Position numbers and translations under genes: made by a program
The notes under the pieces: model-generated
Told to the model about the DNA's origin: nothing
Databases searched by the model: none
Seen by the model: the letters and a program-made list of their open reading frames with translations, nothing else
Assembly: GCA_044231675.1 (NCBI GenBank)
Contig: CM094664.1
Location: 14,296,162 to 14,360,161, forward strand
Direction: 5' to 3'
Length of the DNA: 64,000 bases
Origin: Synchiropus picturatus
Lineage: Eukaryota
Shown here: piece after piece, positions 3,801-46,921 of the stretch
How the letters are laid out: every line of letters starts with the position of its first letter
How positions within the stretch are numbered: the stretch's first letter is position 1

Positions 3801-4024
3801 TAAAAAAAAAGTAGTGTTTCAAATTATATTTTTGTTGTCAGATTTCTTGCATGAAATGCTGTTTTTCACCTGAAAAGATTTCAATTTGGTGTTAAATAAA
3901 GCTGATCTTGAACAAACAATTGTGTTTTGAAATTTTTTTTAAAGTGGAACTTGGATGTTATAAAGGCCCTTAAATCTAAATTCTCAGGGATTTCCTTTAT
4001 CCATCTTTTAAGAGGTAAAGATTA

Positions 4025-4100
4025 ATGCTGTTTAAAAAATCGATTTTCCGATTCTGAATCGATTCGTAGATGGATTCCATAAAATCGATTCGTAGGTCCA
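4025..4100. repeat. cluster of AATCGAT(T) motifs, a possible subterminal repeat of the hAT remnant (left)
   Basis: aaaatcgattttccgattctgaatcgattcgtagatggattccataaaatcgattcgtag carries at least four copies of (G)AATCGATT(C). Confidence 0.4.
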
Positions 4101-4139
4101 AAGATCGGATTAATTAAAGTTTTAACACATATTCTCCGG

Positions 4140-4720
4140 GTGAAGTCCAACCCCTTTGACGCAGGCGCGCACCTGGGACACCAAAGTCAAAACATGCCTC
4201 CTCAGATTGGCAACACTAGCAACGTGCCGAGTTTGAAAACGCTTGAAGGTGTTGCAGTATTGCGGAAATATGACCCACCTCACGCATCACGTGACGCGAC
4301 ATCACCCAGCGTTCCTGTCCAAGCCATCCACCCGGCCACAACAGATGAAACCCGAGCGAACTTTACCACTACCGGGTCATTCTGCACACTGTGTCAAAAT
4401 AACTGAAGCGATTGCCGGCTTAATTGGCAAAGATATGCGCCCGTCGTTGAAAACGAGGGCTTCAGGCGGCCAATGAAAGTAACAGAGCCACACTACGTTA
4501 TGGTGTCTCGCAAACGTCTATTATCCCAAACACGCACCAGTCAGTCAAAGACGTGAAAAGTAAGCTTCAGTCAGCAGTCAGGGTGGGCATTACAAGTGAT
4601 ACGTGGACATCTTCGCAATCTTACACGAATCTGACAACTGACTATATTGATGAGTGGAACCTCTTCTCGTACGTACTACAGACCACAGAACTGTTCACAT
4701 ACTGCACAATGACCAGCAGG
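4140..4720 (+). mobile_element. degenerate hAT-superfamily DNA transposon remnant (fragmented transposase ORFs)
   Basis: Translation of 4560-4720 gives ...TSDTWTSSQSYTNLTTDYIDEWNLFSYVLQTTELF, which matches the conserved hAT transposase block (tDmWTS...SY..lTaHwId.dW.L.s.vL.f). Upstream ORFs contain His/Cys-rich BED-finger-like fragments. The reading frame is broken by stops, so the element is not intact. Confidence 0.5.
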
Positions 4721-5039
4721 TTGCTGTGAAGTCAGTAACCAGCACTCTGTTTACATTTTCACTGGCTGAGAATATCTTTCTTTCATTTTGATAACATAAA
4801 AATGCATTAGTATTAAACAGCAGCATCATGGGGGTGAATTTTTAATGTCATATTTCTAATAATGCACCAGTCCCATGAGCAGTCACATCTGGCCTTCTGT
4901 GTCTGGATCTTTATTATCATTTACTACCAATCCTTCATTAATTTCCTGTTGAATGTCAATATGATACTAGTATTAATATGTTGCGTAACATGTGATTATG
5001 GCAACAGCTCAGATAATGGTTTAAATACTAACCTGAATC

Positions 5040-5140
5040 GAGATCGAATCGGATCGAATTGAATCGTGATAATCGATTCTAAGTCATGAGAATCGGAATC
5101 GAATCGATTATTGAAATTAGAATCGATACCCAGCCATAGT
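5040..5140. repeat. cluster of GAATCGA/AATCGAT motifs, a possible subterminal repeat of the hAT remnant (right)
   Basis: gaatcgagatcgaatcggatcgaattgaatcgtgataatcgattctaag...gaatcggaatcgaatcgattattgaaattagaatcgatac carries more than ten copies of the same motif seen at 4025-4100, bracketing the transposase fragment. Confidence 0.4.
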
Positions 5141-5771
5141 AAAGATGCATTTTATTTTGTCTGACTCAAATGTCCAAACAGTTGCTCTCCAAGTCAAATG
5201 GTTTCTTTTGGTAACATTTCTATGAAGGCAAATGTACGTTAGAATTCAGGACAGAGATTGCCTGAAAATTTTGCAGTATATTCAATGGTGAAAGGCCTCA
5301 TACTTTAATTTTTTTTAAATATCTAGTTAAACATGTACATATCCAGAATATGGAAGATGACATTTCCTGCTCAATTTTAATCCAATTAAGGAATATTTTC
5401 TATTTAAAAAGACTAGCAAACTGAAAGCTTGAGTTTGCTAGTCAACAGGTTTGTTGTAGCTGATATTTAGACAATGCTGGTATTTTCTCATTATGAAAAA
5501 AGGGCTTTATCTTGAAGGTTCATTATACGATTGTTTAACCATTGAAGAGAAAATATGTATAACACTGGTAAATGTGATGTCAGCACATGACTAAATCCTT
5601 TCCTCAATGATGCCCATTTCACAAGTTTCCAGAACATGTTGCGCAATGTGTTTAAATAAAATCATTCACTTTGTTTATAAAATACAAAACTTATTTACAG
5701 TCAATGGTAATACAGTTTTGTTTTCTTTACGCGTTTACATTCATATCATCGACCACTGTGGCCCTAACCAC

Positions 5772-5830
5772 AAGTGGACGCAGCCCGGACTCGAACCGGT
5801 GACTCTCGGTGCGTTGGCCGCCTGCCGCCT
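5772..5830 (-). other. tRNA-derived (SINE-like) fragment carrying a pol III B-box, GGTTCGAGTCC
   Basis: On the minus strand this reads ...caccGGTTCGAGTCCgggctgcgtccac. That is a perfect T-arm/B-box consensus with a partial acceptor stem. No complete cloverleaf or A-box is present, so this is a fragment and not a tRNA gene. It sits in the ltb4r 3' flank. Confidence 0.35.
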
Positions 5831-5837
5831 CTCCAGT

Positions 5838-6095
5838 TCAGTTTTTATTTTCGTATAACTGCGATCTTCCGTTCTGTGCTGAAGACCCCGAGCTAGAGTC
5901 CATGGTGCCGAGGCCCACGCCCTCTTTGTTCCCCATCCGGCTCTTCCCGGTCTGGTCGGAGGATGTCCCCTCGAACAGCCGAGCCATGAAGGCCAGCCCG
6001 TTCTTTCGGATGTAGGACTTGCCGGCGAAGGTGTAGAGGACTGGGTTGGCACAGCTGCTGATGAAGGCCAGAGCTGAGGTCACGACCCGACTGGA
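5838..6095 (-). CDS. ltb4r: ltb4r-like segment C (TM7 plus C-tail, stop 5838-5840)
   Basis: Encodes (LDHITK)SSRVVTSALAFISSCANPVLYTFAGKSYIRKNGLAFMARLFEGTSSDQTGKSRMGNKEG... The upstream boundary is ambiguous: the acceptor is either ttccag at about 6114 or aag at about 6095. Confidence 0.55.
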   Translation of the reverse strand, partial: SSRVVTSALAFISSCANPVLYTFAGKSYIRKNGLAFMARLFEGTSSDQTGKSRMGNKEGVGLGTMDSSSGSSAQNGRSQLYENKN

Positions 6096-7336
6096 CTTGG
6101 TGATGTGGTCCAACCTGGAAGAGCAACACAACCCGAGTCAGCTTCACACATTGATCGTCCACTCTTCATCAGAAACTCACGTGTCTCGTCCGTCTGAGTC
6201 TGGTTTGTACCACCGTGACGCCACCTGGACAATGAATGCTCTTTAGAAACAAGATAACCCCGCCAGGGAACACGACCCGGGCCTCACCACCGAGCCCCAC
6301 TCGCACCTGCATCATGTTGATCACATGGTACGGCAGCCAGAAAAGACCAAAAGTGACCACGATGGCCAGGATGAGGTTCTCGCTGCGGACCTTCCTGCGG
6401 AACTTGGTCTTCCTCAGGCGTCTCAGGATCAGAACGTAGCTGGTGATGATGATGGTGTAGGGGATGATGAACCCCACCACCGTCTCAAAGGTGTAATGGA
6501 ACCTCACCTGTTTGAGTCAAGAAAAGTTGAACTCTAACAGCTAAAAGAAGCTTCTTGGCGGGTTTTGCTTTGAATGCTGGGAACTATTAAGGGACTGGAG
6601 GGTTGATGGAGACACAACCAAGTCAGATGAGGACTAAGACTTTCTAATCTTAGAATCTTAAAACTGTTGCTGAAAGACTCAAGTCACAGGAAGTGTGAAC
6701 ACGTGCCGGCCATAGCTTATCAGTCAGGATACTCAAAACTGGAACTTGAGAGAATGACTTATGACTTACATGTCGGTCCTCTGTGTGCTCCGGTGCACAC
6801 ACCAGCCTGGTTTTATTCCTCTCGTCTTTGTCCTCCCGGACGCTTCGGAACACCAGTGATGGGATGGAGATGAGCATCACCAGAATCCACATGCCCACGA
6901 TCACCCTGATCACCACCTTCTTGTTGATCCTGGAGGACACCCGGCGGGGGTACACCACCACCACCAGCCGGTGCAGGCTCATGAGCATGATCGTGAAGAT
7001 GGAGGCGTACATGTTGGTGTTGCACAGGTAGAAGAGGCCCTTGCACATGACCTCGCCGAACACCCAGGACTGCTTGGCCAGGTAGATGATGAAGAAGATG
7101 GTGAGTGCCATGAGGACGCCGTCGGCGCACGCCAGGTTGAGGATGAGGAAGGTGGTGACGGAGCGTTGCCGCGCCCGGGCCAGGATGCTCCAGACAATGA
7201 AGAAGTTCCCAGGGACGCCAAGGAGGAAGACCAGGCCGAGGATGAGGGCGCCCAGCGCAGTGGAGAAGTCGTTGCTGACCACACTCTCCGACTCTGGATT
7301 GGTGTCATTGAAGATCGCTTGGCTGATGTTGTACAT
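5838..7336 (-). CDS. ltb4r: leukotriene B4 receptor-like class A GPCR (ltb4r-like); the CDS is in three segments
   Basis: The 7TM protein aligns with human LTB4R across all helices: GVPGNFFIVWSIL (TM1), LNLACAD (TM2), NMYASIFTIMLMSLHRLVVVVYP (TM3/DRY-like), FWLPYHVINM (TM6), NPVLYTF (TM7 NPxxY), and an N-glycosylated N-terminus MYNISQAIFNDTNPE. Human LTB4R has an intronless CDS, but here it is interrupted; see findings. Confidence 0.85.
6181..6507 (-). CDS. ltb4r: ltb4r-like segment B (TM5-TM6-ECL3), acceptor aaacag
   Basis: Starts VRFHYTFETVVGFIIPYTIIITSYVLILRRLRKTKFRRK...FWLPYHVINMMQV. The 3' end of the segment is uncertain; the frame reaches a stop at 6169 after a GTGAGT at 6180. Confidence 0.6.
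6770..7336 (-). CDS. ltb4r: ltb4r-like segment A (start codon to ECL2, ends ...CAPEHTEDRH, donor gtaagt)
   Basis: The ATG of MYNISQ lies at 7336-7334 on the minus strand. There is a phase-0 GTAAGT donor directly after the His codon at 6770. The alignment EDRH|VRFHYTFETV against human EGHR|AFHLIFEAV is gapless across the junction. Confidence 0.8.
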
Positions 7337-8369
7337 TCTAGGAGGATTTCCGACATTACAAATAATGGGTTCACGTGAATAAACAAACAGATTTGCTGTC
7401 AAACATATTCCTGACACTTGAATGTAAAAAGAAACGTAAACATTTTTCGACTTCTAACTCCAGTGGCATCGTGGACTTTCCAAAATTTCCACTCATCGGC
7501 AACTTAAAACTTTAGCTTGTCATCCTGATGGAATTTAGATTTTCTTGTAAATCAAACCTGCGCTGCCTGGCAACAGACCAACAGCGATTACACAGCAAAG
7601 ACTAATAAGGCGCTTGCTGCCCCTCAAAAATTCAGTATTGAGCCATGAAGTCACTCGACGTGCTAAAACACGCCATTGCAGAATTTCAACACTCATTCAT
7701 TACACTTTTTCATACTTGGTTTGTTTCTCTTTCACCGGCGGGAGCAGGAACAGCCCAATTAAGTACTGAGAAATTATGATCCCATATCAGCAGAGCATTG
7801 AGACAGGAAGTCAGCGGCGTACTTATTCCTCTTAAAATGTATTTTTGGAGCTCTTGTTTGATTTATGTGAGGCTGAGCTAGTAAACAAAGTGAAGAGCAT
7901 TTCTGGGGACAAACACTCCCCTCTGATGGTGAGTGGAATGACAAAGTGCGTAACATTTATATTATTACTTAAAGTCAATAAATAAGTGTGTGGGCGTAAT
8001 TGATGCATGTTTTGACCTCCAGGGCATAAAAGAAAGAAAGCTAGTCAAACACAGTTAAAAGCCTTTGATGTTGCATTTTTTATTTTAATTTCCAGTTTTT
8101 GGTGACTGGCTGTACCAATTACTAGCACTGCTTGAATACTTCAAAACAACACACTCAGTTACAGCAATTCTGGATTTTACTAACCACTACTTCTATTGCT
8201 TCTTGCACTTATCACTTTTTACTTTGATTCTATTCTATTCCTGATACTACAACTAGTTCTTCCACTGGTAAAAGTTATCTGACCACTCTTGAACGTCTTT
8301 CAAACTAGTACCTCGTGGGTTAGTACTAGAGCAACTGACAACAGTCAAAATGAATGAATATATCATGTG

Positions 8370-8850: not shown

Positions 8851-10746
8851 TATCAGTCAAAGGCAGCAAGTACTGTAGGTTTGTAAAGTAAAGGAAGAGT
8901 GTCAGGAAGTAGATTTAATCACAGTGAAGTGAACAACACCATTATGTTTGTTTACTTACTGGTTAGAATGGAATCCTCCACAAGCTGAAATTGTTATCAG
9001 ATTTTAAAACCAAACTGAGCCACTGCTGTTAAACCTGCTGGTAAACATTGCTACTCTTTTTGGAAGAGTAGCGATGTGATGTATAGGAGCAGAAAAGATC
9101 ACTGACCTGTCAGATTGAAACGGTCCTCTCAATGCTGCCTCTTCCTCTCCTGCCAGGGCCTCTCTGACATCGTCGTCCTCGAACCTCTGACTCACGTCCT
9201 GACCCACAAGCTGTAACACGCTGCTGCAGAGAGCGACTCAGAGGTGTGTCCTGTCCAACACTCTCACTACCTCCACTCCCCTGCACTTGATCAGACATGA
9301 AAACATCATTCTCCATGGAAACATATCCCTGGGCCACATGTTTATAAAGTAAAATATTTCGTCTCCCCTGGGCGTCTTTTTCTACTGTGAACCAGGGCTG
9401 TGATGAAACCCCCAGCTAGAACATGACTGCATCTATCGTCAGTCGACAAGTCACTAGTTACTGACTCCGCCAGATAAATGTCCTGGTGAAGGTTTCCAAT
9501 CGTGTTACAAGTCATATTGCATCAATAGGCACCTGAGGTGACCTCTACAGTGACCTCTAGTGAGCCACATTTTAACTATAAAACACAATAAACTGCAAGA
9601 TGTAACAAATGAAATGGATGTGATTTGATGAATGAATGATATTTCACGTAGGTTGTTGTGATCATAAGAATGATTTTAGGAATTTATCTGTGACGTTCAT
9701 CATCATTTGCTCTTGAAGAGCTGACGTGTAGCCATAGTTACCATCCTTTAATCTCAAGCAGAACGTCCCACCAGACCCACTTCCTGTGCAGTTACAGGGT
9801 TCTTATCTTAATGTGACGCTTGATGACACACAAAAGGCTCAATAAAACTGTGCTCCACCACAAAAGACTTGCCCGTCTTGCCTCAGTCACCCTCTGATTG
9901 CAAACACATCTTTAGTGGAACGTCTTCAGCAGAAAGTGTGGAGGAATCCAGGTAGAATGTGAGTAAATGATCAGGATAAATGAAAAAAAAAGGGCACCTA
10001 TGCTTTTAGTAAAGAAACATAATAATTAAAAACACTTTATTAATGGATTAATTTATGGATGCTAAATGAAAAAAATGTAAAATCTCGTCAAAGACATGGG
10101 AAACTTCATGAAACTTCAATAGATAAAGCAATAGTTTTTTTATGAAAATGTGACATATTCAGAGAACATTTAAACATAAAGTGTGATGATCATAACCGAC
10201 CATATAATAAAATCTAAATTTTCGAATATAATATTTAAGTGCAGTGCATGAATAAATAATGTCTTTAAACATTCCAAATAGACTAAATCTTAATTTTTCT
10301 TTTAAAATTTTAACAGATTTTACAAACCTTTTAACTCCAGATTAGACTAAAACGGCAAGGAAGGTACTCATCTTCTCGTGCGACTGAACACAACACATCA
10401 ATAATCCACCTTTTACGTCGTTAAACTGTGTCTAGTCTACACAGGTTCAAGTTTCCACTCATCGTCCCCGCAGGCGCTGCGGCACTGTTCTCACGTCGAC
10501 CACTAGACGGCAGCAAATACAAACTGGTAGACGTCACCATAACGTCAGTCTGCATCATTTGAAACATCCGCGAATTCTCACGAAGAATAATCACATCAGT
10601 GTTTTAAAAGGTTTTTTTTTCCTTTGTAGCTTCAAATGTCCCGAATGATACAAGGGAGAAACTCAAAAACAAATTGAAAAGAAAAAGTAAACGGTTATAA
10701 ATTGAATAGTGTATAAAGATTATTATTATTTAATGCATTCCCATTC

Positions 10747-11149: not shown

Positions 11150-11430
11150 AGAGTGAAGCCCCCTGTGTAATGACTGTGAGAACTGGAGGAGGACGAGGGG
11201 CGGAGGGGGGAGTCAAGCGGGGAGGCGGGGGAGTCAGGGGGAAGGAGGAAGAAGGAGCGGGTCAGAGCCAGATAGTGTTTATTTAAGTTTTTCGTCTCCT
11301 GACTCAGACAGAGAGCAGACGAGAGAGGATAATGAGAACCAGATCTTCGGTGGAGAGGAAGAGGAGGGAGGAGAAGAAAGGGGGAGGGAAGAGGAAAAGT
11401 GACAGCCAGGAAGAGGAGAGAGCCTGTCAT
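11150..11430. repeat. GA-rich polypurine/polypyrimidine tract about 1 kb upstream of the nfatc4 start
   Basis: ggaggaggacgaggggcggaggggggagtcaagcggggaggcgggggagtcagggggaaggaggaagaagg ... ggagaggaagaggagggaggagaagaaagggggagggaagaggaaaag. A second block lies at 12030-12110. Confidence 0.8.
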
Positions 11431-11999
11431 TTATTGCTTATTAAAAATGTAAAGCAAAGGCCACAAACAAATCAGCTTCCAGACTTTGTTCGGGACAATT
11501 TAATTTAAAAAATGACTCACAGAGGGGTCCAGGTTCTGAGAAGGGAGTTGGACTTGGAGGACACCGGGACTGACTTTTCCACACATTTTTACTGAGGAAA
11601 AAAAAAAAACTTTCTTTTTTTTTTAAATGAAAATGTACATGGCTGCTTTAAATGTTTTTGTAGACAGAGGCGAGGAACAAGTTCTACGCTACTCTTTGAG
11701 GGCCACTCTGCAGTTCACAACTCGAGACATCCTGCGAACCATGGAGACCCCATGGTCTCAAAAACTTGCACCTCCAAAAATCAGTGGCATCAAATGACCC
11801 TGCATGTATTTTTCATAAAGTTTTCCAAAACTTTCTTACATTGCTGGCCTAGATTTTTTTAAACAGGGGCCTATTCTATTGGTCTTTCCAAAAAATAAGG
11901 GTTGAGTCCGACCCCATGTTGACCTGGTGGCCAGGCAGCTGATCTTTGATAGTTGAGGAGATAATCTTACACTTCAAGGACCCAGTATGATGGAGAGAT

Positions 12000-12460
12000 T
12001 TGATAAAAGGAAAAGCACTGCTGTGCCTTTTGTGAGAGTCCTCGGAAGAAGGGAGGGCGGAAGGAGGAGAGAGGAGGGAGAGGGAGTAGGGGGGCTCGTG
12101 ACGGACAGGCAGGAGGTCCTATTGGAGACCTGGAGCTGGGAAACCCACCCAAAGGCAATTAAGGGTAAAGGACGACAAAAATATTTGATAAACTTTTTTT
12201 CTGGAGCGCGGATGTGGTGATGGAGCCGGATTCAAAGAGCCGGATCTTTGACGACCGTCATCTGGAACTCCTAAAGAGACGATCGGATTAGATCTGGACC
12301 ACGTCTGGAAGTTGCTCTCCGATCAAGCATCGCGTGGAACGGAAAGATGTCCTGGATGAGGACCTAACTTTTCTCTCTCTTTTTTTTTTTTGGAGTGGAC
12401 GCGTATTGGATCCGCAGAAGAACCGAAGGAAGAATCTAGACCCCGGGAAGCCGGTGGGCG
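12000..12460 (+). promoter_or_regulatory. nfatc4: putative nfatc4 proximal promoter and 5'UTR (GA-rich, GC-rich)
   Basis: Lies directly upstream of the nfatc4 ATG at 12461. GAGA-rich blocks (gaggagagaggagggagagggag) sit beside CpG-rich sequence. The TSS itself is not determinable from sequence. Confidence 0.35.
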
Positions 12461-12632
12461 ATGGGGGCCGCACCGGGCTCCGGCTGGGAGGAGGGCGAGT
12501 TCGAGTTCAAGTTGGTGTTTGAGGAGGACCAGAACCAGGGGCCCGACCCGGTGACCGCAGCCCGGCCGGAGAGCTCCTCACCCGGCGAGGAGAGCGAGAG
12601 CGCGCCGCTGCTTCAAGACTCGAGCGGCATGG
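12461..12632 (+). CDS. nfatc4: nfatc4 exon 1 (ATG)
   Basis: ORF 12461 encodes [24 protein letters not shown]...LLQDSSGM. The donor is G|gtgaga, phase 1. Confidence 0.8.
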
Positions 12633-15600
12633 GTGAGAAAACCCTCCATCCGAACCCGAAGTCCGTGTGTGGGAATGTGTGCGTGTTTGTGCGTGACTCC
12701 ATCTGTAAGCACACTTCTACCGTGTGTTTGTTCTCGTGTGTGTGTGGTATGCGTCCACATGTGTATTAATGCTGGTGTGTGTGTGTGTGTGTGTTCGAGA
12801 CCCAGACTCAATGTGTTTCTCATCAGCTGTGCGTGTGAGCGGAGTTAACAGCTGCCATCTGGGAGGAACCTCAACCTCAGCTAAACCTCCCTGACTGCGC
12901 CGCGCGTCCGCAACCCTCCCAACCACATATTCAACTTTGTCGCAAACTTCGATCCACTTCCCTTAGACAACAAACATAAAGCGTCACCGTTTACTGCTCC
13001 TTTCTTCACTTAACTTTATGAACCTTCTCGTATCAAAGTCAAGGCCCAGGGGCCAAATCCGGTCCGTCACTTTATGTGTTTCAAGTGCACCAAAAGCCAG
13101 ATGAAAGCTGGTGACGCGGATGTGCATCAGGAAGAGTGTCACTTGTTTCATGAGGTGATGGAGAGACCACGAACCACAGAGAGGTGCCTGAAAAGCAAAG
13201 TGCAGCACGGGCCCTTTGGCTGTATTCATGTGGCTCTGATGAAGTTAATGAAAAACTGGAAAAATAAATTGATTTTTCACCATTAATTTCTATTTAAATT
13301 ATAGTAAAGGTATAACCCATTAAGTCTTTATTTTCTTTTAGTTCATTTTAGGTGTCTTTTTGTCTTCCTGCATCGCTACAACTATTATATTCAAGAGTTA
13401 AATAAAATTAAGTTCAATTGAAATTAATTCTATTAAGAGTAATAACCATTTGTATTTATTGTTGCTCAAAATAAAAAATAAAATGTCATCTGATATTGAG
13501 ATTTTTATTGTAAGACATTTACTTTCATACATTGAGAATCTTTTAATAATATGAATGTAAAATTAACTCAAATAATATACTTTGAGTATATAATGCTTTG
13601 TGTGGTTTTATTTTTGGATTTTTTTATTTGAACCTTTGTTTTTGAGTCTTTTGCTGACAGGGCCTCATTGTGGCACCTTCTGAAATGTAATGGAGTCATA
13701 TGTTCGGAATGTTCCCCAGACTAGATGGAAAGCAGTTTGTTTTCGTTGTAATTCATTTATTCTAAAGTTCTACATCCTGTTTACGTTCGGGGACACCATC
13801 TTGGATTGCGAGTTGCGAGAATTCTCCAATATCCAATGTCGGATGACGTCATCCTGGGAATTTCTCACTTCTGAGGGCAACTGGAACGCAGCAAAAGTCC
13901 TTCATAAATCCCTGGATTTGATCTGAGTCGGTATGACTTGAGTTGCTCGACAGGAATGACACCGTGCACATGGTCAGAGTGAGTCTCTCAGAGTGTCGAC
14001 AGGGTTTAACTTCCTCCATATTTAGAGCTTCATCTGAGTCTAGAAACCCCTGATCGATCACAAAAACTGTTTAACCGTGCTCTAAAGAAACAGGAAGTGA
14101 TGTCAGCTTGATGCTAGTGACCAGCCGACCTTGAGAGCTGAACCACTATCAACTGTGTTGACTCTTAATGACTCAAAAAATAACAGAAACTGGCCTGAAA
14201 CTATATTAAAATCACAATGAATTGAATAACTATTGATTCAAGTGTAAATGTGCAAGATGACTGAAGGGCACTTCCATGAGCATCAAGCAGCAAATCTGGG
14301 GAGTCAGGACATTCACATTGTCATTGATGTTTGTCGAGTCCGACTGACGTATTCAGGTCACTCGTGCTGAGCGTTTTAATAAGTTGCTGAAAATGAGTCT
14401 GGAGCTGAGGAGTGACGTCGTGGAGTTGTAATTGACGATCCAGTCTGGTGTCCTGTCCCACAGTTTTGTTGTTATCAAGCGCTGACTGGTCCGCACACCT
14501 GAAACAAGAGTGGTGGAGCCGATCCTGTCCGCAGCTGAGTGATTCTCCAGCCGCGCTTCCACGTGCCTGGCTCTTTTTCTGTTCCTGCTTCTGTTCGTGT
14601 AAACAAGCCGTCATCTACTTTCCATCTTGGGTCCTTCCAGCAAACACCTTGCAACTCCTGCTGTCCGTCCATCCTGTTTCTCAAATGAGAGCATCTAAAG
14701 AGTCACTTGCTAGTTTTACGACCACGACCACATCACTTCGGTCCACCAGATACTGCGTCATGACTCACCAGGGACATCGCAAACTCTCCTGAAGAAAACA
14801 TGACACCACTGCTGCTTTATAAATGGCACCAATAACGGAGATGTTATACAGGCTAGTAGCCGCTGACGGTTCAATTTGAAGTTGTATTTTCAAGTTTCAG
14901 AAATGTTCACAAGCTTCGAAGCTGCACTTTTTAAGATTCTGTTTGTGATTTACAACAGAAATGCTGCCTCTTTATTGGAGTATTGATGTCTGTGTTGGCT
15001 CCTTAAAGTGGAATGTTTTACTTTTTTCTTCTTACTTTTTTCTTGCAGAGAGGCGGAAGATATGATGTTGTCTGAAAAGTATAAAGAACTAGCTATGACC
15101 TTTGTGCTTAGCTAGTCAGGATCATTGCATCTGAGCTTGTGGTCTGGTTTTTTTTAGCAATCCCTACTTTTTAGGCTCACAATTTTTCCTCCACTGTTTT
15201 CCATGGAAACTAAATGTGATTTACGCAAAAACTAGCCGACCAAGCCTTCCTAGCAGTCACTTAGCTGCCGCCATGTTCTTTTGACAGTCACGTTTCACAC
15301 GTCGCATTTCATTGGTCACATTTTTGTGGCGAGAAGTGGATGAGTGCTGCTGATCTGGTCCTTGGTGTGAGCATCTGCAACACAGAAGCGCACTGGTGTT
15401 GAGGAGGACAGTTCAGAGTGGGTGTTCAATGGAAGGGAATGCGTCTTTGTGCCCCTTGTGTTGGGAGGCGGAGTTGCATTTTTGCTAGCAGTTGACCGCT
15501 AATATGTCCAGTTTAAGCCCTTATTTCCTGTCAAAGACGCTGCAATGGCGGGCCAGGACTGAAGGCACAACGGGCCATTCAACGCGCCGAAGTCTGAGCG

Positions 15601-18600
15601 GAGTAACGGTTAAAAAGAAAGCAACTCACATGGAAATGTTTACGAGTTTGACTCCGCAGTTCAGTCGGAGCAGTTGGACGGATCGATCCAATAACTGTCG
15701 GTTCTCTTGGCTGACGGGCGTCACAACCTTCTGAATCATAAGAAGCAGCATGAGTTGCCTCTGCGCTTAAGCTTTAATCACTTGGAAATATTCTCAATGC
15801 CAGGAAACTTTTGAACAGATTTTTTTTTTGTTGTTGTTTTACCGCAAGTCTTAATGTGCTGGCAGTCGCCGTAGCGAGCAGCGCTGACCAAAAACCCGCC
15901 GGTGCGCCGCTTCAGCGCTCACCAACATCCGACCACGAAGCTGACCCTCCGCGGGCCGACACCCAACAAGATGCCGTCATGTGATTAGAATTTGTTTTAT
16001 TAATGAATCGGCAGTTTAATGAGGGAAAATGGAGCTCTGCAAGCCGGGCTGGCCTCAAGTGTGGAGTTTAACGCCCAGAAGGGTTGGCGGGGGGTGCTCA
16101 GTAAATTGTTGCCACATGACTGTCGAGATTACAACCGAAGGCTGCGCAACGTCCATCATCTTTTATAGTTTCTGGCCAATCTTCAGATCTGAAATGGAAT
16201 TACTAATGGAGCAAGACTGCATCAGAAAGCTTCCTTTATGGACCTTCTGTGGAGCATGTAAATGCAGCTTTCAAGAGTGAGCTACTTCTGTCATCTGTGT
16301 TCTTCATGAGGAGCATCACTGAAACTGTCTTCTCTTATCTGAGGTCAGATCATAGAGGCAGCACCCAAAGTGAGCAGTTTTACAGTCAGATCTGTCGCCA
16401 GGGAATGTCACTGGATGAGTAGTCGGAATTGTTGAGTTGGGTCTTGTGTGGACCAGAATTGAAGTGACTTGAGGTTCATTCATTTTAAACCTCTTATTCT
16501 GACACATGGTCTGGATTACAAACTCAAGGAAAATTGTTGTGTAATGAATGAGGTAGGCACGTTGGAGCATTCCCTAAAATGTATTTTGCAAAATTCAGTT
16601 TGACATCTCATGAGTCCCTCTCATGCTAGAGGAGCTGGGTGAGCAGGATCTCCAAGACATTTCGATTTGCATGGAGAAGGATAGCCTACTTCTTTTGTCC
16701 TTTGACTTTACCTGACGCTTGTTGCAGTGACGGAGAACCACGTCAGCGCAGGTCACTCTATCAGCATCTCCACCCCGCCATCGCCATCCAGTCAGAGGGC
16801 AGGGATGCACTCACCACCACCGCGGAGAGCTCTGGTGAGGGAGTTCAGCGGGACGTATGAGAGTCTTCCAGCACGGTCCGTTCAGGTGAGGCGACGTTAC
16901 AGGTATCTAAGTCATGACCTGCTCACTTTGATGCCCTAGCTGTTGTGACCTCCAGGTCTCAGAGTCTCGGGTGGTTGAATGTCCAAGCATCCAGATCACC
17001 ACCATATCGCCAGAGGACGACCCGGGTTCCACGGCCCCCAGTTACTGGGACATGGGAGGAGGAGGTCGCTGGGAGCGTGAGCGTCTCTTCCTGCCCCTGC
17101 TGGACCCATTCAGTTACAGAGACCGCTGCCCCGGCTCACTCAGCCCCAGTCCCGCCTCCAGTCCATCGTCCCGGGGCTGGCTGAGTCCTGCCTCCAGCTG
17201 CGACTCACTGCTGGTGGAGGAGGAGGAGCTCAGCGAAACCAACGTCCACTATGGGCTCTCGCCATCCTCCAGGCCGACCTCACCAGGAGGGAAGAAGCGT
17301 CGCAACACGCCGCTCTCCTCCCCTTGCACCTCCAGGAGGGGGAGCTCTTCTGAGGAACATCAGGGCTACACCCAGGAAGGTGACTCCAACCCCTCGTCAC
17401 AGGCGCTGCCTACCAGCTGCGACCTCAACATCCCGCAGAAAACAAGAAAGACGTCTTTGGAGCAGGTGAGAGTGTTTCAGCGCTCAGATGGTCCCCCGTA
17501 TCTTCACGTACACCTCGTCTCCAGCTGTCCTCCAGGGAAGTGGATCCAGAGCAAGCTCCTGGACACTGTGCCCCATGTCTGCTGCCCGAGACCCTGCAGA
17601 CCCGGAGAGAGCCCCCTTCCACAGGCATGGACTACCTCTCAGTTCCCCCGGCTCTCGCCTGGGGCCGGACCAGAGCCACCGCCCACAGTCCCCTCTTCAG
17701 GTACGAAACCAGGTCACTCCTGTTGCCAGGCTTCCTGTGACTTTTTGTTGTATGTTTATATATGTTTGTTAATATGTTTTTTGAGCTCACACCTTCACAC
17801 CTTCTTCCTCTTCACAGGTCCAATGCTCTGCCACCGCTCGACTGGCCGCTGCCCTCCCAGTTCGACCAGTACGAGTTGCGCATGGAGGTGCAGCCGCGTC
17901 CTCATCACCGGGCCCACTATGAGACCGAGGGGAGCAGGGGAGCGGTGAAGGCTGCTCCCTCCGGCCACCCGGTGGTGAAGGTGAGTACCTGCAAATTAAA
18001 GTATTTTTCGCAATGCATCAAATACAGCGATCATTTCTCTCTGTCAGCTGTGTGGCTACACGGAGAGGAAGCCGCTGTCCCTGCAGGTCTTCGTCGGTAC
18101 TGCAGACGATCGCTCCATCCGACCGCATCCGTTCTACCAGATACACAGGTGCAGCAAACACACTGTACAATCGTAGAGTTCGGTCGCGTTGGATGACTCA
18201 GTGGTGTTTGTGTCTCAGAGTGACAGGCAAGATGGTGGGTACCGCCAGTCATGAGAGCGTCCAGGCCGGAACCAAGCTGCTCGACATCCCGCTGAACCCC
18301 GAGAACAACATGACGGCACTGTGAGTCCTCTCAACAGTGTATTACACACATCAAACACTACTGTGGACTCAGCTCCTCAACGTTCCGCCACAGCATTGAC
18401 TGCGCTGGCATTCTGAAGCTGAGGAATTCCGACATTGAGCTGAGGAAAGGCGAGACGGACGTGGGGAGGAAGAACACTCGCGTCCGCCTGGTCTTCCGAA
18501 CTCACCTGCACCTGACGCACCCGGCTGCCCCGCCCGGACGAGTGTTGGCGCTCCAAGTGGCCTCGCTGCCCATCGAGTGCTGTGAGTCTAACGCGTCAAT

Positions 18601-20996
18601 CACGGGAGACATGACTTGATGAGTTGGCACAAGTCTTAACCGACTCGTCTGGTCCACCAGCTCAGCGTTCTGCCCAGGAACTTCCCATCATCGAGTCAGT
18701 CAGCATCACTTCCTGTTCAGTGGAGGGAGGGGAGGAGCTTCTGCTGAGTGGAAACAACTTCCTGCCAATATCCCGGGTGTTGTTCATGGAGCGCGGGACA
18801 GGTAAGGATCAGCCATGATGCTGAGCAGGAGAGATCTCTGTCAGGAGTCTCATCCTGAGGAGAGAAGCATTTGCAGGCGAGATTTAAGGCCTTCAATGCC
18901 TGCGTGAGCTGGTTCCTCTGAGATCTGGTTATTTTATGAAAGTAAATCCTAACTTGGCGGACAGAGCTGCAGACCATTTTCTGCCTTGCTAAATGTGCTT
19001 GTAAATTTAATAAGCTTTGTGTGCTGAGTTCTGAAGCAACTTCATGACTCTTTGTGAAACTTGAGATGTTGGCTTACAGACGACAAGATGCTTTTTTCGA
19101 TGGATAACATAACATCACACCTTCATGAATGAGACCTGAGCATGGGAGTGTAGTGTAGCTTAGCCTGGAGGTTTAACAGTGCAGAGGTTTCTCTGCATGA
19201 AGGTTGCGTGTATCCCGGTCCAGGAGCCCGTCTTGATCACCATCCAGAATCTTGACCCAACAGTCAGGAATTCACTTGGCTCAAGTGGGAGTTTAAAAGG
19301 GTTTAAAAGAGGCACTCCAGTTTCCTCCCACAGTCCCTTGGTGTTAATTTGTGATTCTTAAGTGCTCAAAAATGTAAATGCAGGTTTCTTTCTTTCCCCC
19401 CTCCTGGGCTGCTGGCACCATGTGACCCTGGCTTGAGGGAACAAGTGGTCGACCATTAACTTTCATTGATAACACATTTCCATCTCTGGTTCTGGTGTCG
19501 GTACCAGGTCAGATCAGCACCCACAATGATGCTGATCATGCAGTTTTGGCTGATGGTCGTCGGCTTGTTTTACAGTTTTATGTTGTGTAACCACGCACTG
19601 GTCTGTCAATCTATCATTGTAGTGTGTACATTTTACCACCCCAACAAAGTGAGTCATATGGGGGAACAGCACATCTGATCATCAGGGACCGCCAAGAAAT
19701 CTTAGTGAAATTACTGTTTTTGTCTACTGGAAAAATGTGTGTGTGTTTGAGGACTTGGATTTATACTATTTGACTGGCACACTGAGTCACAGTGTGATGT
19801 CATCAGCAGTGGCAGGAAGTGACACGAGAGCACTCTGCCAGTGGTTGATGCACATGACTGACTCTGCTGTGTTTGACCCCGGTTAGATGGGAAGCTGCAG
19901 TGGGAGGAGGAGGCTCACGTCGACCGTGACAACAGTAATGAGGTAAACCCTGTTCCTGCACGAGTGACCTCCGACCCCTACTCTGACTGGCCGCCTGTGT
20001 TTGCAGTGTTTGCTGTGTGTTCGAGTGCCGGCCTACAGCGACCTCTCAGTCAGCCGCCCGGTGTCTGTTAGCCTGTACGTTTCCAATGGGAAGAGGAAAC
20101 GGAGCAGCACTCACTGCTTCAAATACCTGCCGAGTGAGTCGCGATGATGATGCTCATGATGACGAAGATGAAGGGACTAGTGAGGTTCTTTCCTACTCTG
20201 CAGTCATGTTCAAGGAGGAGGACCCGCTGTTGTCCCGGCTGCAGGTCCCACCTCTGGACGGTGGTCATGGGGGTCAGTCCAGAATGGACCGGGTCTTCAC
20301 GATGACCGAGGAGCAGGGTCTGGGCTTCCACCTGCCCCCCTACCCCACCACCTACTCCCCTCCGTGCCCGGCCATCAGCTACCAGGACGAAGAGGACCCG
20401 GGCAGGTCCTCCATGTCTGAGCGACACCCCAGCTTTGAGAACCTGGAGCTGGGCTTTACCGAGCTGCTGCCCCCTCTGTACCACCGTGGCCAGCAACCCT
20501 CCTCACCCTCTCCATCTCCATGGCTGGACTCTCCCTACCTCTCCTCCTCCCCCTCCCCGTCGCACTCCTCCTCTCTCAGTCCGTTCCCAGCCGGCAGCCC
20601 CATCTCCACCTCCCCTCTGCCTCCCATCCCCACCTCTCCTTACCCCCAGTTCTCTACCTATCCTCAGGAAATGTGTCCCTCCCCTCCCCTGCAGCCCAGC
20701 TCCTACCAGGACATGTGTCCCACGCCCTACTCCCACTACGACGTCTGGGATCAACAAGGGAAGGCGCTTGGTCTTGGTGGCGAGACCAAGTCTCAGGAGT
20801 GCCCCCTGGAGTTCAGCAGCTCCACATCAATGCACCACATCACATTTGAAGAGGGTGAGTGACTGAGCCGGCGCTGAGGCTTCAGTTATCTGCTCCTGCT
20901 CTGACTTCTCCTCTTCTCGCCGGCAGTGTCGGAGTTCATCGGAGAGGACATCCAGTCGTACCAGCCCAGCTCACACGTCAACAACCAGCCGAACTG
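12461..20996 (+). CDS. nfatc4: nfatc4 (nuclear factor of activated T cells 4) gene span, 13 coding exons, 2616 nt CDS (~871 aa)
   Basis: The N-terminus [23 protein letters not shown] matches human MGAASCEDEELEFKLVFGEE. Other landmarks are GMHSPPP, the calcineurin-docking [13 protein letters not shown]-repeat/SRR regions, the NLS KKRR, and the Rel-homology domain [37 protein letters not shown] ... [34 protein letters not shown] ... [10 protein letters not shown]. The C-terminal mini-exon [10 protein letters not shown] matches human EEVSEIIGRDL. Confidence 0.9.
16728..16885 (+). CDS. nfatc4: nfatc4 exon 2
   Basis: Encodes (V)[52 protein letters not shown]. The acceptor is ttgcag and the donor is gtgagg. 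Confidence 0.8.
16956..17465 (+). CDS. nfatc4: nfatc4 exon 3 (regulatory domain: PxIxIT, SRR/SP motifs, NLS)
   Basis: Encodes [22 protein letters not shown]...[19 protein letters not shown]...[13 protein letters not shown]...[12 protein letters not shown]. The donor is gtgaga. Confidence 0.85.
16983..17000 (+). other. nfatc4: calcineurin docking motif PxIxIT (PSIQIT) encoded in nfatc4 exon 3
   Basis: [11 protein letters not shown] corresponds to human NFATC4 CPSIRITSISP, which is the conserved SPRIEIT-type site. Confidence 0.7.
17525..17700 (+). CDS. nfatc4: nfatc4 exon 4
   Basis: Encodes ...[26 protein letters not shown], matching human GMDYLAVPSPLAWSKARIGGHSPIFRT. The donor is AG|gtacga. 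Confidence 0.7.
17818..17980 (+). CDS. nfatc4: nfatc4 exon 5 (RHD N-terminal start)
   Basis: Encodes [54 protein letters not shown]. Confidence 0.85.
18048..18148 (+). CDS. nfatc4: nfatc4 exon 6
   Basis: Encodes [33 protein letters not shown](R). Confidence 0.8.
18219..18320 (+). CDS. nfatc4: nfatc4 exon 7
   Basis: Encodes [33 protein letters not shown]. Confidence 0.8.
18394..18581 (+). CDS. nfatc4: nfatc4 exon 8 (RHD DNA-contact region)
   Basis: Encodes [62 protein letters not shown]. Confidence 0.8.
18661..18801 (+). CDS. nfatc4: nfatc4 exon 9 (IPT domain)
   Basis: Encodes [46 protein letters not shown]. Confidence 0.8.
19887..19942 (+). CDS. nfatc4: nfatc4 exon 10
   Basis: Encodes [19 protein letters not shown]. 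The acceptor is ggttag and the donor is gtaaac. Confidence 0.75.
20007..20133 (+). CDS. nfatc4: nfatc4 exon 11
   Basis: Encodes [42 protein letters not shown], matching human VSRPVQVYFYVSNGRRKRS. Confidence 0.7.
20204..20854 (+). CDS. nfatc4: nfatc4 exon 12 (C-terminal S/P-rich transactivation domain)
   Basis: Encodes [17 protein letters not shown]...[29 protein letters not shown]...MHHITFEE. Anchored by ORF 20017..20862. Confidence 0.8.
20926..20996 (+). CDS. nfatc4: nfatc4 exon 13 (terminal mini-exon, stop 20994-20996)
   Basis: Encodes [23 protein letters not shown], matching the human C-terminus EEVSEIIGRDLSGFP. Confidence 0.75.
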
Positions 20997-23023
20997 AGCG
21001 GCTTTTGACAATCCTCCACTGTGCACTTACTCCTTTGTTACCGGAGATTAACCTGATGAGTTTTTATAAAGCGAACTTAAGTTGTTTTCAATATAAATTA
21101 TACATGAACCCTTTTTTGTCTTCGGTCTGTCTCTTTGAGGAGCAACTTCTGTTGCCGACGTGGCCTTTAGGAGCTTGTGCTATGTAGCCCCATCCATTCT
21201 GTCTGCAATAACATCACAGTGTTGTCAACATGAGAGGGAGGAGAGTTTGGGACAGGATGACAAGGGTGTCTCGCTGGATGCTGGACCAATGGCGGCGCTG
21301 TAAGTACCACACTGTCTCAGCTGTCAGAAGTTCTTGGGGTCGTAGCAGTGCAGCTGCAACTAGTGATGACGAGGTGTAAAACCTTTCCTGTCTCCGCACT
21401 GGACCGTGGTAGAGTGTCACAGGGGAGGTGCTCGCTCTCTACACCTCCGAGGCTGGAGCGCTCACTCCAGGGTTTGATGTCCTGTTGTGGGCTGGAGCTG
21501 GGACAGGGATGAGGTGAGTCTCGGACAGAGCGTGACTTGGTTTATGACTTTGTCACAGCCAAACTGCACAGATGTGCACATTCAGAGCTGGACACGCACC
21601 GGGCACCTCTTCACTTCTGTAGAGACGTCACTCACTCGGCAACCCCTCCCACATGCAGCGGCCACACACATAGAGGAACAGCGCACCTGCAGCAGACACT
21701 CTACATTCACTCCTACAAAAGCCTATTTTAAGGCTTGGAACGCATTATTTCTTTTTCCGTTCATTGTAATGGGAAAAATCGATTTCGAACAATTCGCTTC
21801 TCGGACGGCCTTGGATTGTGATCGAGAACTGATGTACCACTGTATCTTAAAAAATAACTTCTGTTAGAGATTACACTGGTATCACAGAAAAATATGTTTC
21901 GCAAAACGAATTTGTCTCAATATACTGACGTCAGCGGAAAAGCGATGACGTTTCAATGTTTTAAAATTGCATTTTTTTCTAAACACATGCACCATACTCC
22001 ATACATTAGTGTTTAGCTGAAGAGGTGAGGTTCCATTTGACTGTAAATTACAATATGTACTCTCACATTGTAAGACGCCGAACTGATCAGACCCCGAGAA
22101 AATCTGGACCCTACAACGTGAACTGGTTTGCCGAGGCCCGATTGAGGTGGAGACTGGATCGCGCCCCCTGGTGGACGCTTTCACAACACCGCTCAGAAAA
22201 ACAAGACGAGTGAGGTTTGTACAACTGAGTTTCAGTCTCCCTCACTCATCTGCTCTCGCGTTCGTCCGTCGTCCAGCGGAACAAAGAGATGAAAGCAGAA
22301 TGGATCTGAAAAGAACGGCGTCATTCCTCCTGCTGACACTTTTACTGGTCCATATGCTTCCTCACTGCCTTAAATGGAAACGAGAAGAACCGAGGACCGA
22401 TGCTGGACGCAGCGTTTCCGAGCTCTGAACGTCTTTTATGACGAGTTTGGAATCTGTTGCTGTAAATCTTCGCTGACGCCCGAGTGTTTCTCTTCCAACT
22501 TTTCTCTCGCGACTTGAGAGCACTTGGAGTTCAGCAGTGGAGCTGAAGAACTTCATACATGACATCCATTATCACTCGAACCTCACCAGAATTAGTCATG
22601 CTCTTTTAAAACCTTTCTCCCATATGTTAACCTAAATGATACAGAATAACATGCTTTTTCATCCTGGTTAATGAATGTTTTACTCACATCACTTCACTGT
22701 TATGTTTCCAAGATGTTATGGCCATTTATTTGTTGCATATTTAATATATTTAGTCAGCTATATATTAAAAAGATATGTTTATAAATGCACCAAAACCTCA
22801 AGTTATTATTTTTCCATATAACGCAATAGTCATTTCCGTATTTTTTTTCAATATTATTGGACTATTTGTTTAAATTATATCGATTGTGAGTTACAATATT
22901 ATCAACTTATTTCATGCATATTTCTCGGTGATTTCTTTGTTTGAGGAGAGGAAGGTGAGAAAAGAGGAAGTAAGTGGATGAGTATAATTTTTCGTCTCTT
23001 AGTAACGAACTTCAAAGTTCAGG

Positions 23024-23302
23024 TTAATGCAAGACACGAGTACTTCCCAAAGAAGCCAGCAGGTGTCGCTGTTGCAACACCACACGCCGCTGACTCGAGT
23101 TGACGGACAGGCCCAGGTTCCGTTGGATGGAGACTCGGATCTTCACGGAGGACGGTGACGACGGACGTGAGTAGGAAGATCGAGTCCCGGCGGAGGAGCG
23201 GACCAACTTTGGAAGCTTGTTGCTACCGTTTGAGCCCGGAACTTCTAAATTTGGCTCCAACATCTGAGTGGTGATCATTCTTCTGAGTTTGTTATCTGAC
23301 AT
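23024..23302 (-). other. orphan 92-aa ORF (basic, Ser/Arg-rich) in the nfatc4-myadm intergenic region
   Basis: MSDNKLRRMITTQMLEPNLEVPGSNGSNKLPKLVRSSAGTRSSYSRPSSPSSVKIRVSIQRNLGLSVNSSQRRVVLQQRHLLASLGSTRVLH. It has an ATG start with A at -3 (ttaaATGtc). Nothing in it matches a family I recognise. Confidence 0.15.

Positions 23303-38168: not shown

Positions 38169-46921
<8,753 letters not shown>

What the first reader, a model, noticed from the sequence alone, without database searches (positions are those of the whole stretch)
5838..7336. ltb4r-like GPCR with spliceosomal introns inside a normally intronless coding region, including a possible 60-70 nt micro-intron or ECL3 insertion
Mammalian LTB4R and LTB4R2 have single-exon coding regions. 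Here the CDS is split. First, a roughly 270-bp phase-0 intron (gtaagt...aaacag) falls exactly between EDRH and VRFHYTFETV. The flanking protein aligns gaplessly to human EGHR|AFHLIFEAV, which is strong evidence for a genuine intron gain. Second, downstream of TM6 the frame hits a stop at 6169, immediately after a perfect GTGAGT at 6180. The TM7/NPxxY region (SSRVVTSALAFISSCANPVLY) resumes in another frame about 70 nt later, after a ttgctcttccag tract. No single donor/acceptor pair gives both canonical signals and a human-like ECL3 length. The GTGAGT..AAG solution inserts about 20 extra residues (IHCPGGVTVVQTRLRRTRH) into ECL3. The alternatives are a very short intron with non-consensus sites, or a frameshifting lesion, meaning a pseudogene or an assembly error.
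Basis: partly seen in the sequence, partly recalled or inferred. Interest (0 to 1): 0.55.

Follow-up and report, generated by a model that had tools for sequence, protein, structure and literature searches.

The report
Ordinary fish ltb4r2b with micro-exon
This is an intact, already-annotated dragonet leukotriene/12-HHT receptor gene (ltb4r2b); the apparent frameshift is two tiny introns flanking a 44-base exon, a layout shared by all four teleost lineages examined, so the finding is ordinary.

Summary
Together with the 262-nt first intron (6769..6508), this gives a 4-exon, 1089-nt ORF of 362 aa. That protein is 100% identical to GenBank "leukotriene B4 receptor 2b [Synchiropus picturatus]" and 98.6% identical to the S. 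splendidus RefSeq protein. The solved exon chain in S. splendidus is the same (567/201/44/277). The 201-nt and 44-nt exons are also present in Polymixia, a grenadier and a moray eel. A reedfish orthologue has only the middle intron. A shark BLT-like gene has no CDS intron, and a frog BLT1-like gene has none in the 7TM core. Intron 2 is therefore old in ray-finned fishes. Introns 1 and 3, and hence the micro-exon, were most simply added before the teleost radiation. The gene is under strong purifying selection (pN/pS about 0.10). The ECL3 insertion, a non-consensus micro-intron, a pseudogene and an assembly error are all rejected. "Intron gain relative to mammals" is supported, but the gain is ancient and already annotated.

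The parts
6770..7336 (-). Coding exon 1 (567 nt). Runs from the start ATG at 7336..7334 and encodes the N-terminus through TM1-TM4 and most of ECL2, ending ...TEDRH.
   Evidence: The exon is the same length in S. splendidus and 97.7% identical without gaps.
6508..6769 (-). Intron 1 (262 nt, phase 0, GTAAGT...AAACAG).
   Evidence: Position and phase are the same in S. splendidus, Coryphaenoides, Polymixia and moray eel (alignment column 247). It is absent from reedfish ltb4r2b. Identity to S. splendidus is 95% with 8 gap columns.
6307..6507 (-). Coding exon 2 (201 nt). Encodes the end of ECL2, TM5, ICL3 and TM6, from VRFHY... to ...FWLPYHVINMMQ.
   Evidence: The exon is exactly 201 nt in all five teleost loci solved.
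6225..6306 (-). Intron 2 (82 nt, phase 0, GTGCGA...TTGTCCAG).
   Evidence: The same alignment column (319) and phase are found in all teleost ltb4r2b genes, in reedfish ltb4r2b and in croaker and carp blt1-type genes. It is also 82 nt in S. splendidus, where the acceptor AG is kept (TTGTGCAG).
6181..6224 (-). Coding exon 3, a 44-nt micro-exon encoding VASRWYKPDSDGRD plus the first two bases of a Thr codon. This is the N-terminal half of ECL3.
   Evidence: The exon is exactly 44 nt in S. splendidus, Coryphaenoides, Polymixia and eel. The peptide motif VAxEWYxxDSPxR is conserved across orthologues. The only difference from S. splendidus is synonymous in this frame.
6115..6180 (-). Intron 3 (66 nt, phase 2, GTGAGT...CTCTTCCAG). 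It has a CTGAC branch-point-like motif with its A 23 nt from the 3' splice site.
   Evidence: Position and phase are the same in all teleost ltb4r2b genes solved (column 333). It is absent from reedfish, whose 321-nt last exon is uninterrupted there.
5838..6114 (-). Coding exon 4 (277 nt including the stop TGA at 5840..5838). Encodes the rest of ECL3, TM7 with NPVLY, helix 8 and the C-terminal tail.
   Evidence: It is 98.6% identical to S. splendidus without gaps.

Best explanation
Window 7336..5838 (minus strand) is the intact, functional ltb4r2b gene of a Synchiropus dragonet, almost certainly S. picturatus. It encodes a BLT2-type class-A GPCR.

The coding region has four exons (567/201/44/277 nt) separated by three canonical U2-type GT-AG introns of 262, 82 and 66 nt. 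The 82- and 66-nt introns bracket a 44-nt exon that encodes the first half of extracellular loop 3. Splicing all three gives a 362-aa receptor with an ECL3 of normal length.

The evolutionary history I infer from intron mapping:
- Intron 2 (after TM6, phase 0, at a CAG|GT site) is old in ray-finned-fish BLT genes.
- Introns 1 and 3 arose after the polypteriform split but before the last common ancestor of living teleosts.
- Intron 3 landed 44 nt downstream of intron 2 and so created the micro-exon.

The very short introns are most likely ordinary minimal introns of a small genome, but I did not measure intron sizes in neighbouring genes.

Function, by orthology to zebrafish Blt2b: a Gi/Gq-coupled receptor for 12-HHT, and more weakly for LTB4.

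What is shown: the exon chain, its identity to deposited proteins, conservation of intron positions, and purifying selection. What is inferred: that the splicing occurs in this species, the timing of the intron gains, and the ligand.
For: - The exon chain gives a 1089-nt ORF with one terminal stop, and all six splice dinucleotides are canonical.
- The product is 362/362 identical to GenBank ltb4r2b of S. picturatus and 357/362 identical to RefSeq ltb4r2b of S. splendidus.
- The exon chain that reproduces the S. splendidus protein on its chromosome is 567/201/44/277 with introns of 270/82/66 nt.
- The 201-nt and 44-nt exons also occur in Coryphaenoides, Polymixia and Gymnothorax, where introns reach 41 kb.
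- A Logan contig (SRR11928264, 1329 nt) carries an uninterrupted 361-codon orthologous ORF containing ...NMIQVAAEWYPDTSKTRHTLEHIYQSSRAVTSA. This is the spliced form.
- 83 of 85 orthologues have the same 22-residue ECL3 segment length.
- Human BLT1 (PDB 7vkt) aligns through ECL3 with E = 3.7e-70.
- Pfam 7tm_1 matches full length at 178.5 bits.
- Against S. splendidus there are 16 synonymous and 5 non-synonymous differences, giving pN/pS of 0.098. Exons have no indels, and introns are 94-95% identical.
- Reedfish ltb4r2b has exons of 756/321 nt with its one intron at the intron-2 column. Croaker and carp blt1 genes share that column and phase.
- Gene order is conserved. An RHD-domain gene lies upstream, and Epimerase/DUF1731, Rsm22 and PARP genes lie downstream in the collinear S. 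splendidus locus. This matches zebrafish blt2b lying between nfatc4 and sdr39u1 (PMC4349892).
Against: - There is no RNA evidence from this species. The transcript evidence comes from an unidentified relative that is 79% identical.
- The donor of intron 2 (GTGCGA) departs from consensus at +4 and +6, and I found no clean yUnAy branch point at the usual distance in that intron.
- The timing of introns 1 and 3 rests on a single non-teleost ray-finned genome (reedfish). Loss in that lineage cannot be excluded, and gar, bowfin and sturgeon loci could not be fetched.
- The ligand assignment rests only on about 62% identity to cyprinid orthologues of the assayed zebrafish protein.
Confidence: 0.96

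Rival explanations
1. Exon 2 reads through to the GTGAGT donor at 6180 and splices to an AAG acceptor at 6096, inserting about 21 residues (VRVGLGGEARVVFPGG...TRLRRTRH) into ECL3.
For: The model is in frame, gives 383 aa and still matches Pfam 7tm_1 at 167.8 bits. The read-through frame is also open in S. splendidus.
Against:
- 83 of 85 orthologues have the shorter ECL3.
- The deposited proteins of three dragonet species carry the Model A junction peptide, and the S. picturatus protein equals Model A in full.
- In this frame the peptide differs at 5 of 42 residues between the two Synchiropus genomes, against 5 of 362 in the real protein, so it evolves neutrally.
- The model deletes the conserved LDHITK residues.
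- Its Pfam score is 11 bits lower than Model A's.
Confidence: 0.01
2. Pseudogene or assembly error: a frameshifting lesion between TM6 and TM7.
For: If only intron 1 is removed, or intron 1 plus GTGAGT..ttccag, the frame breaks and gives 2-4 stops (models D and E).
Against: - A fully canonical exon chain restores an intact ORF.
- The same exon lengths are found in an independent assembly of S. splendidus and in three distant teleosts.
- pN/pS is 0.098 and the exons carry no indels, while intron 1 carries 8 gap columns.
Confidence: 0.01
3. The split coding region is a recent, lineage-specific intron gain in this dragonet or in compact-genome acanthopterygians, like the MC2R, MC5R and P2Y cases of Kumar et al. 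2011.
For: The introns here are very short (82 and 66 nt). Intron insertions into otherwise intronless GPCRs of compact-genome fishes are documented (PMC3151243).
Against: - All three introns sit at identical positions and phases in Polymixia, a gadiform and a moray eel. The eel has introns of 7-41 kb, so the gains predate crown teleosts and are unrelated to genome compaction.
- Intron 2 is also present in reedfish and in teleost blt1 genes.
Confidence: 0.01

Closest known systems
Annotated ltb4r2b of Synchiropus picturatus (GenBank KAM8839077.1) and S. splendidus (RefSeq XP_053739832.1)
   Same: The protein is identical to the S. picturatus entry (362/362) and 98.6% identical to the S. splendidus entry. 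The exon chain on the S. splendidus chromosome is the same 567/201/44/277.
   Different: Nothing of substance differs. The window is simply this gene. Against S. splendidus, introns are about 5% diverged and intron 1 differs by 8 bases of indel.
Zebrafish Blt2b (ltb4r2b), characterised by Okuno et al. 2015 (PMC4349892)
   Same: Gene neighbourhood is the same (nfatc4 ... sdr39u1). Cyprinid ltb4r2b proteins share the cloned zebrafish C-terminus ...DVIRL and are about 62% identical to this protein. In the assays, Blt2b responded to 12-HHT at lower doses than to LTB4, through calcium, cAMP inhibition and GTPgammaS binding.
   Different: Ligand and coupling were not tested for the dragonet protein. 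I did not examine the zebrafish gene structure, and the paper describes exons and introns only for blt1.
Human LTB4R (BLT1) and LTB4R2 (BLT2)
   Same: Both are class-A chemoattractant-type receptors. BLT1 is the best solved-structure match (7vkt, E = 3.7e-70) and aligns through every splice junction. The locus lies in a conserved 14q11.2-type neighbourhood.
   Different: The human BLT1 ORF lies on one exon (PMC2193224), whereas this CDS has three introns. Identity to tetrapod BLT proteins is only about 38-43%. The DRY position here reads HRL.
Intron insertions into normally intronless GPCRs of ray-finned fishes (MC2R, MC5R, P2Y, CHRM3; Kumar et al. 2011, PMC3151243)
   Same: The phenomenon is of the same kind: fish orthologues carry position- and phase-conserved introns inside the 7TM coding region that tetrapod orthologues lack. 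Some are very short, and some sit at MAG|R proto-splice sites, as intron 2 does here (CAG|G).
   Different: BLT genes are not among the cases in that paper. Those insertions are dated after the zebrafish split and linked to genome compaction. The introns here predate crown teleosts and persist in a large-intron eel gene. Introns 1 and 3 do not sit at MAG|R sites (CAT|G and CAC|G).

Membership tests
BLT receptors, ltb4r2b orthogroup | Full-length rhodopsin-type 7TM domain | tested here: met
   Pfam 7tm_1 scores 178.5 bits over residues 43-298, covering profile positions 1-260 of 260.
BLT receptors, ltb4r2b orthogroup | Closest relatives are BLT receptors, and best hits are named ltb4r2b | tested here: met
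   Most named hits are ltb4r2b and the rest carry other BLT names or none. Identity is 100% to the S. picturatus ltb4r2b. The best PDB matches are the three BLT1 structures, far ahead of the apelin, C5a and chemokine receptors.
BLT receptors, ltb4r2b orthogroup | Conserved position between nfatc4 and sdr39u1 | tested here: met
   The collinear S. splendidus locus has an RHD-domain gene upstream and Epimerase/DUF1731, Rsm22 and PARP genes downstream. Zebrafish blt2b is drawn in a neighbourhood that includes nfatc4 and sdr39u1 (PMC4349892). The neighbours were identified by Pfam domains only.
BLT receptors, ltb4r2b orthogroup | Activation by 12-HHT and LTB4 with Gi/Gq coupling | not testable with these tools
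   Inferred from zebrafish Blt2b assays (PMC4349892) and about 62% identity to cyprinid orthologues.
Class-A GPCR canonical micro-switch motifs | D/E-R-Y at the end of TM3, NPxxY in TM7 and a CWxP-like motif in TM6 | tested here: inconclusive
   NPVLY and FWLPY are present. The DRY position reads HRL (window 6973..6965). That is typical of this orthogroup: H-R-L/M/F in 172 retrieved proteins, and D-R-L in reedfish, sturgeon and shark. It is therefore a family trait, not a defect.
U2-type GT-AG spliceosomal introns | GT...AG termini with a usable polypyrimidine/branch region, restoring one open frame | tested here: met
   The termini are GTAAGT..CAG, GTGCGA..CAG and GTGAGT..CAG, and the spliced ORF is 1089 nt. 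Intron 3 has CTGAC 23 nt upstream of its 3' splice site. The branch site of intron 2 is not obvious.
U2-type GT-AG spliceosomal introns | Same position and phase in orthologues | tested here: met
   Alignment columns 247 (phase 0), 319 (phase 0) and 333 (phase 2) are shared by five teleost loci.
U2-type GT-AG spliceosomal introns | Spliced transcripts observed | tested here: inconclusive
   An intron-free 361-codon ORF lies on a 1329-nt Logan contig from a relative. Several other full-length orthologues sit on 1.2-2.4-kb Logan contigs. No reads from this species were available.
Compaction-linked intron insertions in acanthopterygian GPCRs (Kumar et al. 2011) | Introns absent from zebrafish and tetrapods, and confined to compact-genome fishes | tested here: not met
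   The introns are present in moray eel, where they measure 8.5, 41 and 7 kb, and in Polymixia and a gadiform. Intron 2 is also in reedfish and carp blt1.
Compaction-linked intron insertions in acanthopterygian GPCRs (Kumar et al. 2011) | Proto-splice site MAG|R at the insertion point | tested here: inconclusive
   Intron 2 sits at CAG|G, and the intronless frog gene has CAG|GT at the homologous codons. Introns 1 and 3 sit at CAT|G and CAC|G, and the uninterrupted reedfish sequence has no AG|G there.

The most novel reading that the evidence does not exclude
The stepwise history may be an undescribed example of ancient intron gain inside a chemoattractant GPCR. It runs from one old post-TM6 intron shared with blt1 to two further introns added on the teleost stem, one of them 44 nt downstream of the old one. 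The resulting micro-exon has kept its exact length in the four teleost lineages examined, in intron contexts from 66 nt to 41 kb. A more speculative extension: because 44 is not a multiple of 3, regulated skipping of this exon could yield a TM7-less, non-signalling isoform. My evidence neither shows nor excludes such skipping.
Probability: 0.1. Interest if true: 0.3.

Novelty: already known. Interest (0 to 1): 0.1.

Why it matters
It matters little for biology. The gene and its exon structure are already in GenBank and RefSeq for this genus.

The practical value is as a caution. A 44-nt coding exon between two near-minimal introns looks like a frameshift to a reader, and to some pipelines. Two Ensembl-derived predictions in UniProt garble this exon. 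Three other annotations, from Polypterus, sterlet and bowfin, mis-set the neighbouring boundary.

A minor evolutionary point also comes out. The BLT coding region is uninterrupted in human BLT1 and in the shark gene examined, and is uninterrupted across the 7TM core in the frog gene. It acquired introns in ray-finned fishes long before genome compaction, so this case does not fit the "compaction-driven" picture proposed for other fish GPCR introns.

Tried and rejected
- **Alternative splice models.** The acceptor CTAAAG at 6241 is out of frame and is CTAATG in S. splendidus. GTGAGT..ttccag alone is out of frame. No splicing downstream of intron 1 gives 4 stops.
- **Takifugu P0071 and Polypterus P0129 loci** are not on record.
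I therefore could not place the gains of introns 1 and 3 relative to Holostei, Chondrostei or the teleost genome duplication. Discordant annotations gave a hint only for intron 2.
- **tRNA-like motif just 3' of the stop codon.** ARAGORN and Rfam found nothing, and the element is single-copy in the window.
- **Paralogues.** tblastn found no second BLT gene in the 64-kb window.
- **Repeat scans** of the 1.1-kb species-specific stretch downstream were uninformative.
- **Literature.** Searches found no paper describing the BLT2b gene structure in fish.
- **Structure prediction** was judged unnecessary and was not run.

Full report
**Observation**

The gene lies on the minus strand.
- ATG at 7336.
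- The donor CAT|GTAAGT, with the intron starting at 6769.
- The acceptor AAACAG|, with exon 2 starting at 6507.
- A perfect GTGAGT at 6180..6175, followed by an in-frame TGA at 6171..6169.
- The tract ttgctcttccag| ending at 6115.
- The NPVLY region downstream in another frame.
- The stop codon at 5840..5838.

The first intron is 262 nt and phase 0.

**Resolving the second junction**

The sequence has a second, unnoticed pair of signals: a donor ATGCAG|GTGCGA at 6306 and an acceptor TTGTCCAG| at 6225.

Using both pairs gives exons 7336..6770 (567 nt), 6507..6307 (201 nt), 6224..6181 (44 nt) and 6114..5838 (277 nt). The introns are 262, 82 and 66 nt. The 44-nt exon is entered in phase 0 and left in phase 2, which is the phase the ttccag|G acceptor needs. 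The spliced CDS is 1089 nt and 362 codons, with a single terminal stop.

The alternatives fared as follows:

| Model | Result |
|---|---|
| Acceptor CTAAAG at 6241 | Out of frame |
| GTGAGT..ttccag alone | Out of frame |
| No splicing after intron 1 | 4 stops |

**Test against real proteins**

A search of 5.8 billion proteins returned several hundred BLT-type receptors. The top hit was "leukotriene B4 receptor 2b [Synchiropus splendidus]", 362 aa, 99% identical over 100% of the query. Its sequence contains MMQVASRWYKPDSDGRDTLEHITKSS, which is the junctions of my model.

The same 90% cluster holds the S. picturatus protein (KAM8839077.1), which is identical to my model at all 362 positions. It also holds the Neosynchiropus ocellatus protein, which has the same junctions. 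The window is therefore almost certainly S. picturatus, and this exon structure is already deposited.

Other protein-level results:
- Of 85 orthologues matching a TM6...TM7 anchor pattern, 83 have a 22-residue ECL3 segment, as here. The consensus is QVAAEWYPEDSPTREILDHISK.
- Human BLT1 (7vkt) aligns through all three junctions at E = 3.7e-70.

**Gene structure elsewhere**

I wrote a solver that finds the GT/GC-AG exon chain whose translation equals a given annotated protein, and applied it to fetched loci.

| Species and gene | Exons (nt) | Introns (nt) |
|---|---|---|
| S. splendidus ltb4r2b | 567/201/44/277 | 270/82/66 |
| Coryphaenoides ltb4r2b | 588/201/44/217 | 4570/543/533 |
| Polymixia ltb4r2b | 561/201/44/271 | 1086/108/834 |
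| Moray eel ltb4r2b | 663/201/44/364 | 8532/40959/6977 |
| Reedfish ltb4r2b | 756/321 | 13100 |
| Croaker blt1-type | 497/277/384 | 333/148 |
| Carp blt1-type | 518/274/372 | 2194/853 |
| Bullfrog BLT1-like | 12/1092 | 4390 |
| Bamboo shark BLT-like | 1083, single ORF | none |

On one protein alignment, the three introns fall at identical columns and phases in all teleost ltb4r2b genes: column 247 (phase 0), column 319 (phase 0) and column 333 (phase 2).

The single reedfish intron is at column 319, phase 0. The second intron of the croaker and carp blt1-type genes is also at column 319, phase 0. Their first intron lies elsewhere and they have no micro-exon. The human BLT1 ORF is uninterrupted (PMC2193224).

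Discordant annotations in sterlet (an inserted VRHVFLSQ) and in Amia calva (an inserted VS, which reads like a translated GTGAGT) sit exactly at column 319. This hints that intron 2 is present there too.

The simplest reading is that intron 2 is old in actinopterygian BLT genes. Introns 1 and 3 were added after the polypteriform split and before crown teleosts, and intron 3 created the 44-nt exon. Loss of introns 1 and 3 in reedfish is not excluded.

**Is the gene functional?**

Against S. splendidus, exons are 97.7-98.6% identical with no gaps. Introns are 94-95% identical, with 8 gap columns in intron 1. All splice dinucleotides are conserved.

There are 16 synonymous and 5 non-synonymous differences, giving pN/pS of 0.098. 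The single difference in the micro-exon is synonymous in my frame.

A 1329-nt Logan contig from a relative carries an uninterrupted 361-codon orthologous ORF with the spliced ECL3. Direct RNA evidence for this species is lacking.

**Identity and function**

The collinear S. splendidus locus has an RHD-domain gene upstream and Epimerase/DUF1731, Rsm22 and PARP genes downstream. This matches the nfatc4 and sdr39u1 neighbourhood drawn for zebrafish blt2b (PMC4349892).

Cyprinid ltb4r2b proteins end in ...DVIRL, as does the cloned zebrafish Blt2b, and are about 62% identical to this protein. Zebrafish Blt2b responded to 12-HHT at lower doses than to LTB4 in calcium, cAMP, GTPgammaS and TGF-alpha shedding assays (PMC4349892). 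By orthology, the dragonet gene most likely encodes a 12-HHT/LTB4 receptor. That is an inference.

**Comparison with what is known**

Intron insertion into otherwise intronless GPCR genes of ray-finned fishes is documented for MC2R, MC5R, P2Y receptors and CHRM3, where it is attributed to genome compaction after the zebrafish split (PMC3151243). BLT genes are not mentioned there, and I found no paper on BLT2b gene structure in fish.

The present introns do not fit that scenario. They occur in an eel gene with introns of 7-41 kb. Only intron 2 sits at a MAG|R proto-splice site, and the intronless frog gene has CAG|GT at the homologous codons.

**Verdict**

This is an ordinary, intact, already-annotated gene. 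The micro-intron, ECL3-insertion and pseudogene alternatives do not. Interest is low.

Noticed in passing
window 6973..6965 (minus strand), residues 122-124: The class-A DRY motif reads HRL. Across the retrieved proteins this position is H-R-L/M/F in most acanthomorph ltb4r2b genes. It is Q/N/Y-R-L in other teleosts, D-R-L in reedfish, sturgeon and shark, and D-R-W in teleost blt1. The acidic residue at 3.49 has been lost throughout teleost ltb4r2b, yet zebrafish Blt2b signals in the published assays.
   Followed up: partly
proteins P0114 (Myripristis), P0120 (Periophthalmus), P0129 (Polypterus), P0331 (Acipenser ruthenus), P0384 (Amia calva): These public annotations mis-handle this region. 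Two Ensembl-derived UniProt models replace the micro-exon peptide with unrelated residues. Polypterus loses homology right after exon 2. The sterlet and bowfin models carry small insertions at the intron-2 site.
   Followed up: partly
L005 (Gymnothorax javanicus) 11397..59376: In the moray eel, the same 44-nt exon sits between introns of 40,959 and 6,977 nt, against 82 and 66 nt in the window. The micro-exon is thus maintained in very different intron-length contexts.
   Followed up: no
window about 4022..5139: About 1.1 kb downstream of the gene, on the sdr39u1 side, has no aligned counterpart in the otherwise collinear S. splendidus locus. Repeat and tandem-repeat scans showed only short AT-rich GAATCG-like repeats near 5035-5127.
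   Followed up: partly
window 9499..9568 / L001 about 7550..7797: A 70-nt segment about 2.2 kb upstream of the start codon is single-copy in the window. It aligns three times, at an 89-nt spacing, in S. splendidus, so this is a copy-number difference in a tandem repeat.
   Followed up: no
window about 5770..5835 (minus strand), just 3' of the stop codon: The motif GGTTCGAGTCCGGGCTG resembles a tRNA T-arm/B-box. ARAGORN and Rfam report nothing, and the element is single-copy in the window.
   Followed up: yes
protein P0002 (Pseudoliparis swirei ltb4r2b, 542 aa): The annotated protein repeats the whole exon 2-4 region (VRFQYALETV ... through the C-terminal tail) twice in tandem. This suggests a partial tandem duplication or an assembly or annotation artefact in that species.
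   Followed up: no
alignment, ECL3: The teleost ltb4r2b ECL3 is two residues longer than in reedfish, sturgeons, paddlefish, bowfin and gars. The extra residues lie within the stretch encoded by the micro-exon.
   Followed up: no
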